Positions 3,451 to 8,771 of a DNA stretch of 64,000 nucleotides are shown piece by piece. The notes under the pieces were generated by a model. The model did no database searches. It had not been told where the DNA came from and worked only from the letters and a program-made list of their open reading frames with translations. Source of the DNA: Acetobacter sp. 46_36 (GTDB taxonomy: Bacteria; Pseudomonadota; Alphaproteobacteria; RF32; CAG-239). Position 1 is the stretch's first letter, and each line of letters starts with the position of its first letter. The DNA lies in the NCBI GenBank assembly GCA_001917135.1, contig MNTT01000015.1:7751-71750 (forward strand). The letters run 5' to 3'. Position numbers and translations under genes: made by a program.

Positions 3451-5337
3451 TTAAAAATTAACCTTAATACCCAGGCCAAACTCTTCATCGTCATGATAAT
3501 CGGAATTAAACTTTTTATATCCAGCATACAGCATCACATCGCGCGTCAGCCCGTACCCTCCTTCCGCCGCATAGGTTTGACCGCGCGCCGTATCGCTGGT
3601 GGTAAAATTCTGCATCGCCTGCAAATTAAGGCGAACTCTTCCGCTGTTATAATAAACTCCGCCTTTCAGCCCGATTCCCAAATATCCGTTGTCATAAAGC
3701 CCGCCGCCGTATGCCGCATTCGGAACGCTCATTGCATATAACAAGGTATGCTCTCCCAGCGCATAGCTTTGCCCCACGCCGGTTTCCAGCACCAAAGCCC
3801 CGCTGTCTTCACCCGACTTGGCATCAAACAATTCCCTGTAACCGACTTTAATATCGTATGACAACGGCGAAAACATCGCATCTGCTCCCGCCAGAGATTT
3901 AATCCCCAGCAAATTCAGTTCCTGCAACACCCATTTGCCCCGTACATCATAATGCCGGACTTTTCCTTCAAATAAATTGATTTCAGCTCCGTTTAACAAG
4001 CCATAGCTGTCTTCCAGCAGCGAGTTGTAAACCGGCTTGAAACTGACTTCCTGAAACGCCTCGCCGTTTCTCGCCCCAAACATTATGCCTGCCTGTTTTG
4101 CCTTATGCGCCAAAACCGGATTCTCGCCTTCTTTCAATTCGTCAAAATACTGTCGTTGATTGGCAATTTTGCTACGTTCGCGCAACAATGCCAGACTTTT
4201 CTTCCGATAGTCCGTAAGTTCCAAATCGCCGTCCACATAACGGTATTGCACATACTGGTACGCCGTTTCCAGCACATCGGCCTTTTCCTCTTCGTCAAGC
4301 GCGGATAAATCCGTCTTATCGCGGCGGATAATATCAATAAAAGCGTCATACTGACGGCTGTTCATCTGTGCCGCACGGTATTTCAGCTTAGACTGGCGGG
4401 AGGGACGGTAATTCGCCGCCGTCACCAGCCCCGAAACATTATTCACCGCTTTCAGCGTCGCCAGCGGCACCGTATATCCGCCAAACCCGTCACTGATATC
4501 TAATTCCGGACGTGCCGCCTCCAGCATCAGCAACAGGACGTACGAACAGTTGCGCGATGCAAAGTAATAGCGGATTTTCGCCCGCTGCATCTCCCACATA
4601 TGCGCCGTAAACAGTTCCAGTTCATCATCCGAAAGCCGCAGTTCATACTCCCAGATATCGCGATTCTCAATATTGTTGTACAGATTGATAACATCATAAT
4701 ACGGCTTGATGCCGAACGTTCCGTAATAACCGCCCCACAGGCCTTTCAGTGCATACAAAACGCCGGTTTCGTCGCCGGTATCCGCACCGAAATTCGCCCC
4801 ATGCGCCAACAGTTGCGTCCCTTTGCGCTTCGTGTCAATCCGAAACAACGTATGCCCGAACAAGGACGACGGATTGCTCATATACGCATTCGTAAACAGC
4901 ATGGTAACCGCTTTAGGCTGAACATCCGCCAGAAATTTCTGATAACCGGCACAGCCATCCAACGTTCCACGTACAGCCCCCTGCCGCTTCAGATAAATAA
5001 ACCGCGCCGGAAAAGCACATTTTTTCAACTCGCCGCTGTTTTCCTCTTTTCCAGACGCCTTAGCCTCCTTTCCGAACGCCTTAATCTCCTCTCCGGCCGA
5101 CTTTGCCTCCGCATTAAATGTCGTAACCGCTGCCCGATATTCGGCTTCCGGATTCTCTCTTCCTCCCGGCGTTAGAAAAAACTCCCCATTTTCCACTACG
5201 GACTCATAACCACTGCCGTTTTTTTCATAATGCAACAGTTTCAGCCAGCCTTTGTCAAAAGCTTCTGTTTCCGCACATGCACCCTGCACCGGAACCGCCA
5301 CAATCGCCAACAATGCCAGCCAAACCCGTATTTTCAT
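3451..5337 (-). CDS. DUF4105 (Lnb-like) periplasmic domain protein fused to a C-terminal beta-barrel-like domain
   Basis: Signal peptide MKIRVWLALLAIVAVPVQGACA. The central region (SSLFGHTLFRID, GANFGAD) matches the Lnb N-terminal/DUF4105 family. The C-terminus has alternating Gly/Tyr-rich beta-strand pattern and ends in F (GIKVNF), like outer-membrane proteins. Start chosen at Met16 of the six-frame ORF. Confidence 0.65.
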   Translation of the reverse strand: MKIRVWLALLAIVAVPVQGACAETEAFDKGWLKLLHYEKNGSGYESVVENGEFFLTPGGRENPEAEYRAAVTTFNAEAKSAGEEIKAFGKEAKASGKEENSGELKKCAFPARFIYLKRQGAVRGTLDGCAGYQKFLADVQPKAVTMLFTNAYMSNPSSLFGHTLFRIDTKRKGTQLLAHGANFGADTGDETGVLYALKGLWGGYYGTFGIKPYYDVINLYNNIENRDIWEYELRLSDDELELFTAHMWEMQRAKIRYYFASRNCSYVLLLMLEAARPELDISDGFGGYTVPLATLKAVNNVSGLVTAANYRPSRQSKLKYRAAQMNSRQYDAFIDIIRRDKTDLSALDEEEKADVLETAYQYVQYRYVDGDLELTDYRKKSLALLRERSKIANQRQYFDELKEGENPVLAHKAKQAGIMFGARNGEAFQEVSFKPVYNSLLEDSYGLLNGAEINLFEGKVRHYDVRGKWVLQELNLLGIKSLAGADAMFSPLSYDIKVGYRELFDAKSGEDSGALVLETGVGQSYALGEHTLLYAMSVPNAAYGGGLYDNGYLGIGLKGGVYYNSGRVRLNLQAMQNFTTSDTARGQTYAAEGGYGLTRDVMLYAGYKKFNSDYHDDEEFGLGIKVNF

Positions 5338-5389
5338 AATCGTCCGCAGATACAAAAAGGGCGCGGTTCCCCACGCCCTCAATCAAGAA

Positions 5390-5851
5390 TCACGCCTGAG
5401 CCAATTCCATGATTTTCAAAGTCAAATCAACAGCTTCAACGTTTTCATCCGTAAACAGATACGCAAAATTCTGCTGTGCTCTAGCACCGAGTTCTTTGCT
5501 GTCGACTTCCAAAAGTCCGGCAATCGTATCAATTGTTTCGCCTCTTCCGGCCGAAGCGTCCATCGCAAACTGTTCCATATTGTTTTCAATCACGGCCAGA
5601 ACCAGCTTGCCCGTACCGCCGGTAACGCGCCCGTTCGGATCGCAACCGGAAGTTCCGAGCGTAACGCCGATGGTATTCAGGAAAATGCCGTTGGTTGTCA
5701 TCGCCAACACCTGCGGGATAATACCGGACTGCCCTCTCCAAGCCATAGAACCCAAACCACAGCCGCCGGTAGAGTCAATTGCCTTCGCCGGAGAAACGGC
5801 AAACAGGGCAGCCGCAAAAACAGCACCCAAAACTAAATTCTTTTTCATCAA
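5390..5851 (-). CDS. Secreted DUF3015-like protein
   Basis: 153 aa with signal peptide MMKKNLVLGAVFAAALFAVSPAKA and Gly/Cys-containing segments GGCGLGSMAW and GTSGCDPNG typical of the DUF3015 family. Confidence 0.6.
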   Translation of the reverse strand: MMKKNLVLGAVFAAALFAVSPAKAIDSTGGCGLGSMAWRGQSGIIPQVLAMTTNGIFLNTIGVTLGTSGCDPNGRVTGGTGKLVLAVIENNMEQFAMDASAGRGETIDTIAGLLEVDSKELGARAQQNFAYLFTDENVEAVDLTLKIMELAQA

Positions 5852-5959
5852 AGTTCTCCTTGTACAATAAAACAGTTATAATCTAGCACCTCCTGCCTGG
5901 TTGTATAGCATAAAGTTTGACTAATCAACAGCTCCTCCGTTATATGTCCCGCTTCTCCA

Positions 5960-6085
5960 TTACCGTATGTTCTGCCTTTTCGTTGCCGTATGCTCCCCCT
6001 TCCCGCCGTATACTCAGCCGCTTTGCCGCCGATACCGCCTCGTCGCCGTACGCCTGATTTCCCGCCGCCGTTTGCCGTATCCCGC
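5960..6085. repeat. Array of about six GCCGTA(T/C) boxes at about 21-22-bp spacing in a divergent intergenic region
   Basis: Cores (t/c)gccgta(t/c) occur near 5964, 5986, 6006, 6048 and 6076, with a degenerate copy near 6028. Periodicity is about two helical turns. The array lies between the divergently oriented DUF3015 gene and greA. Confidence 0.5.
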
Positions 6086-6303
6086 CGCCGCTCCCTTCCG
6101 CCATTTTGCTGCATAACAAGGCTTGCCCACACCACTTTAAAAATTTTACTTGATTTATTATTTGATTTGTGCTTATATTTATATACAGAAAATAACGGAT
6201 ACTGGCTGGCACCGCAAAGGTGGCAGTCAAATTTTTTCAAACTTTTCAATTAACGCACACATCCGCAGCCTTTTGCGGAAAACTTATTTTTAGGAGAAAT
6301 AAA

Positions 6304-6777
6304 ATGGATAAATTCCCACTGACCAAGAAAGGATTTTTACGGTTAGAGCAGGAACTCAAGACCTTAAAAGGTGTTGAGCGGCCCAATGTTATCGCCGCCA
6401 TCGCCGAGGCGCGTTCGCATGGCGATTTATCGGAAAATGCCGAATACTCGGCAGCTAAAGAAAAACAAGGCTTTATTGAAGGGCGGATTCAGGAGCTGGA
6501 AGCCGTCGTCAGCCGGGCACAAATTATTGACCCGGCAGAAATGAGCGGCGACGTCATCCGTTTCGGTGCAACTGTTTCCGTCGTTGACGTTGATACGGAT
6601 ACCGAAAACTGCTACCAAATTGTGGGCGACTATGAAGCCGACATAAACGACAACAAAATTTCTCTGTCCTCGCCGCTGGCAAAGGCTCTGATTGGCAAAG
6701 AAGTCGGCGACGAAGTTGTCTATATGGCTCCGGGCGGCAAAAAGACGTTTGAAGTACTAGAAGTTTCGTATATCTAA
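6304..6777 (+). CDS. greA: Transcription elongation factor GreA
   Basis: 157 aa. Carries LTKKGFLRLEQELKTLK, the GDLSENAEY motif and a C-terminal FKBP-like domain. Strong SD TAGGAGAAATAAA before the ATG at 6304. The upstream in-frame part of the six-frame ORF was rejected. Confidence 0.9.
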   Translation: MDKFPLTKKGFLRLEQELKTLKGVERPNVIAAIAEARSHGDLSENAEYSAAKEKQGFIEGRIQELEAVVSRAQIIDPAEMSGDVIRFGATVSVVDVDTDTENCYQIVGDYEADINDNKISLSSPLAKALIGKEVGDEVVYMAPGGKKTFEVLEVSYI

Positions 6778-7604: not shown

Positions 7605-7700
7605 CATTTCTTATGCCGCCACTTTTCTGCATCAATATATCTGGCTTCCGGCATACCTCTGGCGCAAAACCTGACTTTTCCCGCGTTTCCGCCGGATACG

Positions 7701-7731
7701 AAAAAAGACGCTGTAAACCAGCGTCTTTTTA
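7701..7731. terminator. Bidirectional intrinsic terminator between the peroxiredoxin gene (+) and tRNA-Ser (-)
   Basis: agacgctg-taaac-cagcgtct hairpin flanked by A-run upstream and T-run downstream, so it has a T-tail on either strand. Confidence 0.6.
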
Positions 7732-7738
7732 ATCAAAA

Positions 7739-7829
<91 letters not shown>

Positions 7830-7926
7830 GTTGCACCGCTTTGTATAACCTTTTTTTATATTTGGCAAGCACTTTTTTTACTTGTGCGAAAAAAATCCCG
7901 GCGCAAACTCAAACCGCAATCGGCAT

Positions 7927-8523
7927 CTAACTTTCAGGATAGCCGATAACCTGATTCATAATCACAAACTCATCCCGATTCAATCGCAGTTTATCTTTAA
8001 GCTCGTCTTTGTCAATATAACCGCGGACAATCGTATTCAACCCCTTACTCGTTGCATATAAATAAACATTCTGCGCAGCGGCACCAGCATGAAAAGGTGA
8101 ATTTATCTGGTCGCTCCCGGCATAAATCAGATTAACCGGAGCGTTTTTAACAAAATCCTGCTTGGCAATATATCTGCTAATTTCTTCATCGCTGACTTTA
8201 ATCAGCGAATTTGCCGCCGCATCGTATGCCCAGATAGAGTTTTGATAGACCACAAAAACTTTCAGGTTCTGCTCATTCTTTGCCGTCGGGATAGTCCTGG
8301 TTCCCTTTTTATTAATACCGAAAGATGCCCACAGCAAATCGCTGAGCGTCTGCTCGCTGATATCCTTGCTGCTGTATGAACGAGCCGACTGTCTATTATC
8401 TATTAACTGCATCAATTCCGAACTTTTATCCGGCTGAGGCAGTTTTTTAACCTCTCCGGCAAAACATTCCAACGGCAAAATCAACGAAAACAAAAGCAAA
8501 CCCAGCCCGCGCATCATAACCAT
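7927..8523 (-). CDS. Nitroreductase-family (SagB-type-like) protein with predicted signal peptide
   Basis: 198 aa. N-terminus MVMMRGLGLLLFSLILPLECFAGEV is signal-like. The remainder resembles the nitroreductase superfamily (ARSYSSKDIS...LLWASFGINK...VNLIYAGSD...AAQNVYLYATSKG). Confidence 0.7.
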   Translation of the reverse strand: MVMMRGLGLLLFSLILPLECFAGEVKKLPQPDKSSELMQLIDNRQSARSYSSKDISEQTLSDLLWASFGINKKGTRTIPTAKNEQNLKVFVVYQNSIWAYDAAANSLIKVSDEEISRYIAKQDFVKNAPVNLIYAGSDQINSPFHAGAAAQNVYLYATSKGLNTIVRGYIDKDELKDKLRLNRDEFVIMNQVIGYPES

Positions 8524-8771
8524 TCCCCTGTATGTTTTTTAAGAATAATTATGTATACGCCGCGTTTGCTTTAAATTCGGTTAATTTTGTTGTGATATTT
8601 GTTTTCCAGCCTGTTTTTGCGGCTGCATTCTAACGCGACCGCCGCTTTTTTGCTACTCACATTTTCTACAGCCGCCGCCTTTCCCGTTACGCACATTTTC
8701 TGCAACAGCATTTTTATGAAAAAGGCCTACAGCATACTTCTTCAGGCAGATGCGCCTGCATTCTTCCCGGC

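What the first reader, a model, noticed from the sequence alone, without database searches (positions are those of the whole stretch)
5960..6085. Periodic GCCGTAT-box array (about 21-22-bp phasing) in the DUF3015 / greA divergent promoter region
Five to six copies of (t/c)gccgta(t/c) recur at two-helical-turn spacing, all on one face of the DNA. This resembles iteron-like or cooperative transcription-factor binding arrays. Equally it could be a degenerate 21-bp tandem repeat. The 450-bp spacer is otherwise GC-rich here and then abruptly AT-rich (6120-6200) before greA. The six-frame ORFs overlapping it (5848..6249, 5940..6230) have no RBS and are low-complexity. I treat them as artefacts of the repeat.
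Basis: seen in the sequence. Interest (0 to 1): 0.55.

Follow-up and report, generated by a model that had tools for sequence, protein, structure and literature searches.

The report
Strain-variable tandem repeat between two promoters
The GCCGTAT boxes are real, but they are the best-kept part of a young, degenerate 20-23-bp tandem repeat that gains and loses whole units between strains of one human-gut alphaproteobacterium and is missing from its sister species, so this is an ordinary variable minisatellite rather than a demonstrated regulator-binding array.

Summary
There are four exact GCCGTAY boxes plus two degenerate ones at 5962-6080, all on the + strand. Spacings are 23/20/23/17/29 bp. 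It is the densest such cluster in the window and is periodic at about 22 bp (p about 0.01). The claim that all boxes lie on one DNA face is not supported (p about 0.36 at 10.5 bp).

I compared 52 same-species intergenic sequences, which gave 21 haplotypes and eight length classes. Whole units come and go: +23 and +46 bp (unit 1 present two or three times), -20 bp between two perfect 11-bp repeats on three backgrounds, and +64 bp in one lineage. Exact boxes number 2 to 6. Boxes vary as often as spacers.

Six related species keep the flanking genes and core promoters but have no array. All ORFs across the array are frameshifted in some strains.

Best reading: a lineage-specific minisatellite remodelled by slippage or unequal recombination, and at most a variable-length spacer between the DUF3015 and greA promoters.

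Two facts keep a binding-site reading alive. The box is far better kept among units than the rest of the unit. Units 1-2 (42 nt) are invariant everywhere.

Low interest; a new member of a known kind.

The parts
5931..6117 (.). Lineage-specific GC-rich, pyrimidine-rich segment that holds the array. Sister species have about 55-100 bp of AT-rich DNA here instead.
   Evidence: Alignment with L021, L022 and L023. Sequences of L122 and L126. Composition.
5939..5961 (+). Unit 0, a proto-unit (GTTATATGTCCCGCTTCTCCATT). It is box-like (CCGTTATATG) and lies at the position where sister species have CCCTATCATATTG or CTCCGTCATTT.
   Evidence: Unit alignment. By-eye comparison with L021, L122 and L126.
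5962..5984 (+). Unit 1 (ACCGTAT + 16 nt, 23 bp). It is present once in most strains, twice in 4 sequences and three times in 1.
5985..6004 (+). Unit 2 (GCCGTAT + 13 nt, 20 bp). Positions 5963-6004, spanning units 1-2, are identical in all 52 sequences.
6005..6027 (+). Unit 3 (GCCGTAT + 16 nt). Its box is polymorphic: ACCGTAT or GCCATAT in some strains.
6028..6044 (+). Unit 4 (degenerate box GCCGATA). It is dimorphic, ACCGC--- versus GTCTCACT. The L129 lineage carries both versions 64 bp apart, so the two forms look paralogous.
6045..6073 (+). Unit 5 (GCCGTAC + 22 nt). Its box reads GCCGTTC, GCCGTGC or GCCACAC in other haplotypes.
6074..6099 (+). Unit 6 (GCCGTAT + 19 nt). The box is GCCATAT in the commonest haplotype (16 of 52). 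It is removed by the 20-bp deletion.
6060..6070 (+). Perfect direct repeat TCCCGCCGCCG, copy 1. It is one endpoint of the recurrent 20-bp deletion.
   Evidence: family D2. The deletion is seen.
6080..6090 (+). Perfect direct repeat TCCCGCCGCCG, copy 2. It is the other deletion endpoint.
5902..5910 (-). Inferred extended -10 (TGcTATACA on the - strand) of the DUF3015 promoter. It lies inside the block GTATAGCATAAAGTTT, which is conserved across species. The array lies upstream of it, at about -45 to -200.
   Evidence: Conserved block. The promoter assignment is my inference; the scan did not call it.
6150..6179 (+). greA promoter-like site (TTGATT, 18 nt, TATATT), conserved in sister species. 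The array lies about 50-190 bp upstream of its -35 hexamer.
   Evidence: Alignment.
5390..5848 (-). DUF3015 gene (context, left flank).
   Evidence: PF11220.
6304..6777 (+). greA (context, right flank).
   Evidence: PF03449, PF01272.

Best explanation
The array is a young, lineage-specific, non-coding minisatellite (a variable-number tandem repeat). It has about seven degenerate units of 17-29 bp and sits between the divergent core promoters of the DUF3015 gene and greA in an uncultured human-gut alphaproteobacterium. It probably grew by tandem duplication of a short sequence just upstream of the DUF3015 promoter (inferred). It is still being remodelled by slipped-strand mispairing or unequal recombination between its direct repeats, which adds or removes whole units (shown as strain polymorphism; the molecular mechanism is inferred). 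The GCCGTAT box is the best-preserved core of the repeat unit. It is not a demonstrated operator. The most likely consequence is none, or a change in the length of the spacer between the two promoters. Both core promoters and the greA leader lie outside the array, and they stay essentially unchanged whatever the unit number.
For: (1) Whole-unit length polymorphism. 52 same-species intergenic sequences give 21 haplotypes and eight lengths: 435, 436, 438, 455, 458, 481, 504 and 519 bp. Unit 1 (23 bp) occurs 1, 2 or 3 times as perfect copies. A 20-bp unit lying exactly between two perfect 11-bp direct repeats is missing on three different haplotype backgrounds. One lineage has 64 extra bp carrying a second version of unit 4. 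(2) Lineage specificity. The array is present in lineages up to 13% divergent at greA 4-fold sites (L117, L124, L129). It is absent from species at 45%, 60% and 79% divergence (L122, L126/L127, L021) and from L022 and L023, although these keep the DUF3015-greA order and the core promoter blocks. (3) No box-specific constraint. Within the species, nucleotide diversity is 0.028 in boxes and 0.027 in spacers. Across 17 haplotypes, 8 of 42 box columns and 10 of 99 spacer columns vary. Array diversity (0.0275) is close to that of 4-fold sites (0.032) and 3-6 times that of the flanking promoter regions (0.0087 and 0.0046). The commonest haplotype has box 6 mutated to GCCATAT. Exact boxes range from 2 to 6. 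(4) Whole units share descent: spacers align better than shuffles (z 3.1, P 0.004). (5) It is not coding. It has no Rfam match. It has no inverted repeats. No second copy was found in the window, the fetched loci, phages or plasmids. (6) The heptamer is at its maximal-order Markov expectation in the window (27 seen, 28.2 expected). No other pair is spaced 20-23 bp apart.
Against: (a) Among units, the 7-bp box is 77% identical while the rest of the unit is 34% identical, against a chance level of 32%. A simple uniform-decay simulation gives this contrast in fewer than 1 in 1000 runs. Spacer indels inflate the contrast, but it still suggests something has kept or regenerated the box. (b) Units 1-2 (5963-6004, 42 nt) are identical in all 52 sequences, including lineages 8-13% divergent at 4-fold sites. 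That run is as long as the invariant runs in the greA leader. (c) The array has persisted in every sequence of the species and is never fully lost. (d) Only assembled contigs were compared. No expression or binding data exist, and only 64 kb of this genome could be scanned for other copies.
Confidence: 0.6

Rival explanations
1. Homotypic binding-site array. GCCGTAT, or the longer TTRCCGTATG, is the recognition site of a regulator or nucleoid protein. Tandem amplification created a redundant cluster upstream of the DUF3015 and/or greA promoter. The two promoter-proximal units are the essential ones and the distal ones are dispensable.
For: The box is kept far better than the rest of the unit among units. 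Units 1-2 are invariant in all 52 sequences. Spacing is about 22 bp. The array lies upstream of both divergent core promoters. Sister species L122 has box-like CCGTCA/CCATAC words at the homologous spot.
Against: Between strains, boxes vary as much as spacers (8/42 versus 10/99 columns; diversity 0.028 versus 0.027). In units 1-2 the spacers are as invariant as the boxes, which is not the pattern expected of an operator. There is no coherence at the 10.5-bp helical repeat. The array is absent from six related species that keep both promoters. No regulator gene is adjacent. There is no other phased pair in 64 kb, and the heptamer is not enriched beyond lower-order composition.
Confidence: 0.2
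2. Adaptive promoter tandem repeat (contingency locus). Frequent, reversible gain and loss of units changes the distance or coupling between the divergent promoters. This tunes DUF3015 and/or greA expression heritably within populations, as described for promoter tandem repeats in Mycobacterium tuberculosis.
For: Unit-number changes recur on different backgrounds, for example the 20-bp deletion on three backgrounds, and unit 1 forms a 1-2-3 copy series. 16 of 52 sequences depart from the modal length. Some low-coverage contigs break inside the array (L103 and L104). The precedent is PMC12817950.
Against: The repeats do not overlap either core promoter, so no -35/-10 spacing changes. Most strains (36 of 52) share the modal architecture. 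Within-sample heterogeneity and expression effects could not be tested. The unit lengths (20 and 23 bp) are simply what slippage between the existing repeats yields.
Confidence: 0.15
3. A small protein-coding gene on the - strand (ORF 5848..6249 or 5940..6230), with the periodicity reflecting a peptide repeat.
For: Some assemblies call ORFs of 54, 76 or 133 aa here.
Against: Unit lengths are not multiples of three. The ORFs change frame, length or stop position in haplotypes carrying the 20-, 23-, 46- and 3-bp indels. There is no Pfam match. The ORFs run through the greA promoter. No such sequence exists in sister species.
Confidence: 0.01
4. Iterons or a centromere-like site of a replicon or integrated element.
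For: Directly repeated boxes at about 22-bp spacing resemble iteron spacing (from general knowledge of iterons).
Against: No rep or par gene is nearby, and the flanks are housekeeping genes in conserved order. The copies are poorly conserved outside 7 bp. There is no plasmid or phage match. The copy number is freely variable.
Confidence: 0.01

Closest known systems
Promoter tandem repeats with polyphyletic copy-number variation in Mycobacterium tuberculosis (PMC12817950)
   Same: Tandem repeats of tens of bp lie in a promoter-containing intergenic region. Whole-unit gain and loss recurs on different strain backgrounds.
   Different: In that case the repeats duplicate promoter elements and are linked to expression phenotypes. 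Here the units lie upstream of both core promoters, are much more degenerate, and no expression effect or within-population switching has been shown.
Intergenic minisatellites used for strain typing (MIRU-VNTR and MLVA loci; from general knowledge)
   Same: Non-coding units of 10-100 bp. Unit number differs between strains. The repeats are species- or lineage-specific. Evolution is by slippage or unequal recombination.
   Different: Typing loci usually have near-identical units. Here only a 7-bp core is well kept, so Tandem Repeats Finder misses the array.
BrickBuilt 23-nt minisatellite inside a MITE of Porphyromonas gingivalis (PMC4596501)
   Same: The unit length is similar (23 nt). The location is strictly intergenic and near promoters. 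The element is species-specific.
   Different: BrickBuilt has inverted-repeat ends and about 19 genomic copies. Here there are no inverted repeats and no second copy in the DNA available.
Direct-repeat operator arrays at about 21-bp spacing (AraC/MelR-type sites, plasmid iterons; from general knowledge)
   Same: Same-orientation boxes lie about two helical turns apart in a divergent promoter region.
   Different: Operators and iterons are kept between strains and relatives and sit in helical register. Here boxes mutate as freely as spacers, the register at 10.5 bp is not coherent, relatives lack the array, and no cognate gene is adjacent.

Membership tests
Variable-number tandem repeat / minisatellite | Head-to-tail units of about 10-100 bp | tested here: met
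   Six to seven units of 17-29 bp. Autocorrelation peaks at lags 20 and 23. Period about 22 bp with R 0.82. Spacers share similarity beyond shuffles. Caveat: the array is too degenerate for TRF.
Variable-number tandem repeat / minisatellite | Unit number differs between strains by whole units | tested here: met
   +23, +46, -20 and +64 bp classes among 52 sequences.
Variable-number tandem repeat / minisatellite | Non-coding | tested here: met
   ORFs are not conserved between haplotypes. No Pfam match.
Phase-variable promoter tandem repeat (contingency locus) | Copy-number changes recur independently (polyphyletic) | tested here: met
   The 20-bp deletion occurs on three haplotype backgrounds. 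Recombination between strains cannot be excluded as the cause.
Phase-variable promoter tandem repeat (contingency locus) | Heterogeneous unit number within one population | not testable with these tools
   Only assembled contigs are available. Contig breaks inside the array (L103, L104) are only a hint.
Phase-variable promoter tandem repeat (contingency locus) | Unit number changes expression of a flanking gene | not testable with these tools
   No expression data. The repeats lie outside both core promoters.
Cooperative transcription-factor operator array | Boxes conserved better than spacers between strains and relatives | tested here: not met
   8/42 box columns versus 10/99 spacer columns vary. 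Diversity is 0.028 versus 0.027. Exact boxes number 2-6.
Cooperative transcription-factor operator array | Sites in helical register (same face) | tested here: not met
   R 0.42 and p about 0.36 at 10.5 bp per turn for the six boxes.
Cooperative transcription-factor operator array | Present at the orthologous promoter in related species | tested here: not met
   Absent from L021, L022, L023, L122 and L126/L127, which keep the same gene order.
Cooperative transcription-factor operator array | Motif recurs at other promoters (a regulon) | tested here: inconclusive
   No other phased pair in the window, and the heptamer is at Markov expectation. Only 64 kb of a roughly 1.85-Mb genome could be scanned.
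Cooperative transcription-factor operator array | A protein binds the boxes | not testable with these tools
   This needs EMSA, DAP-seq or footprinting.
Iterons of a replication origin | Adjacent initiator (rep) gene and near-identical repeats | tested here: not met
   The neighbours are DUF3015, an Lnb_N-family gene, greA and an AhpC-like gene. The repeats are 34% identical outside the box. No plasmid match.
MITE-borne minisatellite (BrickBuilt-like) | Terminal inverted repeats and several genomic copies | tested here: not met
   No inverted repeats. No second copy in the window or fetched loci. The whole genome could not be searched.
Protein-coding gene | Reading frame kept among strains | tested here: not met

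The most novel reading that the evidence does not exclude
The array is an amplified binding site. The invariant 42-nt pair of promoter-proximal units is an upstream activating site for the DUF3015 promoter (or the divergent pair). Heritable gain and loss of further units gives graded tuning of DUF3015 and greA expression among strains of a very prevalent human-gut alphaproteobacterium. That would be a regulatory input born de novo by tandem duplication within one species.
Probability: 0.15. Interest if true: 0.45.

Novelty: new member of a known kind. Interest (0 to 1): 0.2.

Why it matters
As it stands it matters little. It is one more intergenic minisatellite, though it could serve as a strain-typing marker for a gut alphaproteobacterium that is very common in human-gut metagenomes (its GreA is indexed in 8303 collection blocks). 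It would matter more if unit number tuned expression of greA, a global transcription-fidelity factor, or of the secreted DUF3015 protein. That would be a caught-in-the-act example of a regulatory element arising by site amplification. The analysis also shows how a periodic box array read from a single genome can look like an operator cluster, while population data show mostly unconstrained repeat dynamics.

Tried and rejected
1. Tandem Repeats Finder at score 30 on the region did not call the array, because it is too degenerate.
2. Rfam at E up to 10 on 5700-6500 gave only a sub-threshold freshwater-2 hit in the greA leader and nothing in the array.
3. Pfam on three overlapping ORFs gave nothing.
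4. blastn-short of the array against the window and all fetched loci gave only chance 12-17-mers.
5. Distant blastn of 5930-6120 against plasmids and phages gave no match, so no source for the GC-rich segment was found.
6. GCCGTAY appeared enriched genome-wide (43 seen versus 12 in dinucleotide shuffles). I rejected this as a signal. Hits fall in all frames and both orientations, and the maximal-order Markov expectation is 28.2 against 27 observed.
7. The 'same DNA face' claim was rejected.
8. A MITE or inverted-repeat structure was rejected.
9. I considered a G-quadruplex or triplex on the G-rich strand by eye only. G3 tracts are separated by loops of more than 7 nt and there is no mirror symmetry, so I did not pursue it.
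10. I did not run a homologous-protein search with the spurious ORFs, because the strain frameshifts already settle the coding question.
Close lineages were reached instead through cluster members.

Full report
OBSERVATION

The + strand between 5962 and 6080 carries GCCGTAT at 5985, 6005 and 6074, and GCCGTAC at 6045. It also carries ACCGTAT at 5962 and GCCGATA at 6028. Start-to-start spacings are 23, 20, 23, 17 and 29 bp.

No other place in the 64-kb window has as many same-strand copies within 120 bp: 5 CCGTA and 4 GCCGTAY. The maxima in 200 dinucleotide shuffles were 4 and 2. Self-similarity of 5955-6100 peaks at lags 23 (z 3.7), 20 (z 2.3) and 40. The six box positions are coherent at a period of about 22 bp (R 0.82). 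Only 1% of random placements do as well when periods 18-25 are scanned.

The segment has 60-68% GC and is pyrimidine-rich on the + strand. GC then drops to 30% at 6100-6249. So the array is real and non-random.

The claim that all boxes lie on one face is not supported. At 10.5 bp per turn the phases spread over more than 220 degrees (R 0.42, p about 0.36). Tandem Repeats Finder does not report the array.

CONTEXT

The array lies in the 455-bp spacer between a DUF3015 gene (5390..5848, - strand) and greA (6304..6777, + strand).

The organism is an uncultured human-gut alphaproteobacterium. Sources name it 'Acetobacter sp. 46_36' or 'Alphaproteobacteria bacterium', and relatives are named 'Azospirillum sp. 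51_20'. Contigs reach 1.85-2.0 Mb. Its GreA is indexed in 8303 blocks of the assembly collection.

A sigma-70-like greA promoter sits at 6150-6179. On the other side, a block conserved across species (GTATAGCATAAAGTTT, 5901-5916) reads TGcTATACA on the - strand. I take this to be an extended -10 for DUF3015; that is my inference. The array therefore lies upstream of both core promoters and overlaps neither.

STRAINS

I collected 52 copies of the intergenic region from assemblies that encode the same or nearly the same GreA or DUF3015 protein, and from a metagenome scan with an invariant flank. One contig was fetched twice.

They form 21 haplotypes and eight lengths: 435, 436, 438, 455, 458, 481, 504 and 519 bp. 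All large length differences map inside the array.
- Unit 1 (23 bp) is present once, twice (4 sequences) or three times (1 sequence), as perfect copies.
- A 20-bp unit lying exactly between the two perfect direct repeats TCCCGCCGCCG (6060 and 6080) is missing in 8 sequences on three different backgrounds.
- One lineage (L129-131) has 64 extra bp. These hold a second version of unit 4.
- The two common forms of unit 4 (ACCGC--- and GTCTCACT) therefore look like alternative survivors of a longer array. That is the signature of unequal recombination.

Exact GCCGTAY boxes number from 2 to 6. The commonest haplotype (16 of 52) has box 6 mutated to GCCATAT.

Within the focal species, nucleotide diversity is 0.0275 in the array. 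It is 0.0087 and 0.0046 in the flanking promoter regions and 0.032 at 4-fold sites. Boxes (0.028) and spacers (0.027) do not differ.

Across 17 haplotypes that include three diverged lineages, 8 of 42 box columns and 10 of 99 spacer columns vary.

RELATIVES

Lineages 8-13% divergent from the window at greA 4-fold sites (L129, L124, L117) have the array, with fewer intact boxes.

Species at 45% (L122), 60% (L126/L127) and 79% (L021) divergence lack it, as do L022 and L023. All of these keep the DUF3015-greA order and the promoter blocks. Their spacers are 211-343 bp, AT-rich and free of GCCGTAY. In L024 the upstream gene differs, and it also has no array.

About 190 bp (5931-6117) are thus specific to this lineage.

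At the homologous spot next to the DUF3015 promoter, sister species have short box-like words: CCCTATCATATTG in L021 and CTCCGTCATTT in L122. These resemble unit 0 (CCGTTATATG). The array could have grown from them, but that is an inference.

WHAT IT IS NOT

It is not coding. Unit lengths are not multiples of three. Every ORF across the array changes frame, length or stop position in some haplotype, and there is no Pfam match.

It is not a known RNA family.

It is not MITE-like. There are no inverted repeats and no second copy in the DNA at hand.

It is not iteron-like. No rep or par genes are nearby, there is no plasmid or phage match, and the repeats are poorly conserved.

The apparent genome-wide excess of GCCGTAY (43 seen versus 12 in dinucleotide shuffles) is not a signal. 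Hits fall in all frames and orientations, and the maximal-order Markov expectation is 28.2 for 27 observed. No other pair in the window is spaced 20-23 bp apart.

WHAT KEEPS THE OPERATOR IDEA ALIVE

Among the units, the 7-bp box is 77% identical while the rest is 34% identical in ungapped register, against a chance level of 32%. A uniform-decay simulation produces such a contrast in fewer than 1 in 1000 runs.

Spacer indels exaggerate this contrast. With gaps allowed, the spacers do share descent (z 3.1).

Units 1-2 (5963-6004) are identical in all 52 sequences, boxes and spacers alike. That run is as long as the invariant runs in the greA leader.

Neither the neutral reading nor the operator reading explains both facts. 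I logged this as unexplained.

MECHANISM AND VERDICT

Shown:
- The array is a degenerate tandem array.
- It is confined to one lineage.
- Its unit number differs among strains, with endpoints at direct repeats.
- Its boxes are not preferentially kept.

Inferred:
- It arose by tandem duplication next to the DUF3015 promoter.
- It changes by replication slippage or unequal recombination.
- It acts at most as a variable-length spacer between the two promoters.

My confidence in this reading is about 0.6. I put a redundant binding-site cluster at about 0.2 and an adaptive promoter tandem repeat of the kind described in M. tuberculosis (PMC12817950) at about 0.15.

The closest known things are intergenic VNTRs, promoter tandem repeats, and, by unit length only, the BrickBuilt minisatellite (PMC4596501).

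It is a new member of a known kind and of low interest. Its operator or iteron reading and the one-face claim are not supported.

Noticed in passing
window 6186-6303 (hairpin 6203-6229, U-run 6232-6237; second hairpin 6262-6279): The greA leader carries a terminator-like hairpin followed by a U-run. It is nearly invariant among the fetched sequences; position 6215 varies in the L129 lineage. It is conserved in seven related gut alphaproteobacterial species, and 4 of 8 pairs show double (compensatory) changes. The leader folds with z -3.2. It resembles the E. coli greA leader terminator that yields GraL RNAs and mediates greA autoregulation (PMC2836576, PMC6829880). That paper reports conservation among enteric bacteria. 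There is no Rfam match here.
   Followed up: partly
window 5043-5110, inside the Lnb_N/DUF7843 gene (3451..5382, - strand): An in-frame 21-bp tandem repeat (3.2 copies). The gene product is called at 621, 628, 642 or 643 aa in different strains. A 7-aa step would fit gain or loss of one unit, so this is probably a second, coding VNTR next door.
   Followed up: no
window about 7700-8600, downstream of tRNA-Ser (7739-7829, - strand); loci L001-L020: Beyond the AhpC-like gene and a tRNA-Ser, strains carry different cargo. Examples are HamA plus a helicase, GmrSD, a DNA methylase and a recombinase. The window and many strains have a nitroreductase plus a pentapeptide-repeat protein. This looks like a strain-variable defence-island hotspot.
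   Followed up: no
whole window: GATC is strongly depleted (48 seen, 380 expected; O/E 0.13). GGCC (0.41) and CTAG (0.34) are also depleted. This suggests restriction-modification pressure on these palindromes.
   Followed up: no
window 5390-5848 versus 6304-6777: Among strains, the DUF3015 gene has about 7 times the nucleotide diversity of greA (0.018 versus 0.0025). It also has far more variable 4-fold sites (32/77 versus 13/69). A boundary between deeply and shallowly coalescing DNA seems to fall in or near the array.
   Followed up: no
L129-L131 (intergenic region, 519 bp): This lineage holds both forms of unit 4, separated by a unique 40-bp stretch (GGAAAACCTGGCGAAACAGACAGCAGGCACTGCCTCTTT) of unknown origin.
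   Followed up: partly
L103, L104 (contig ends inside the array); L120, L121 (contig ends just to its right): Several low-coverage metagenome contigs stop in or next to the array. This could reflect mixed unit numbers within a sample, or simply low coverage of GC-rich repeat DNA.
   Followed up: no
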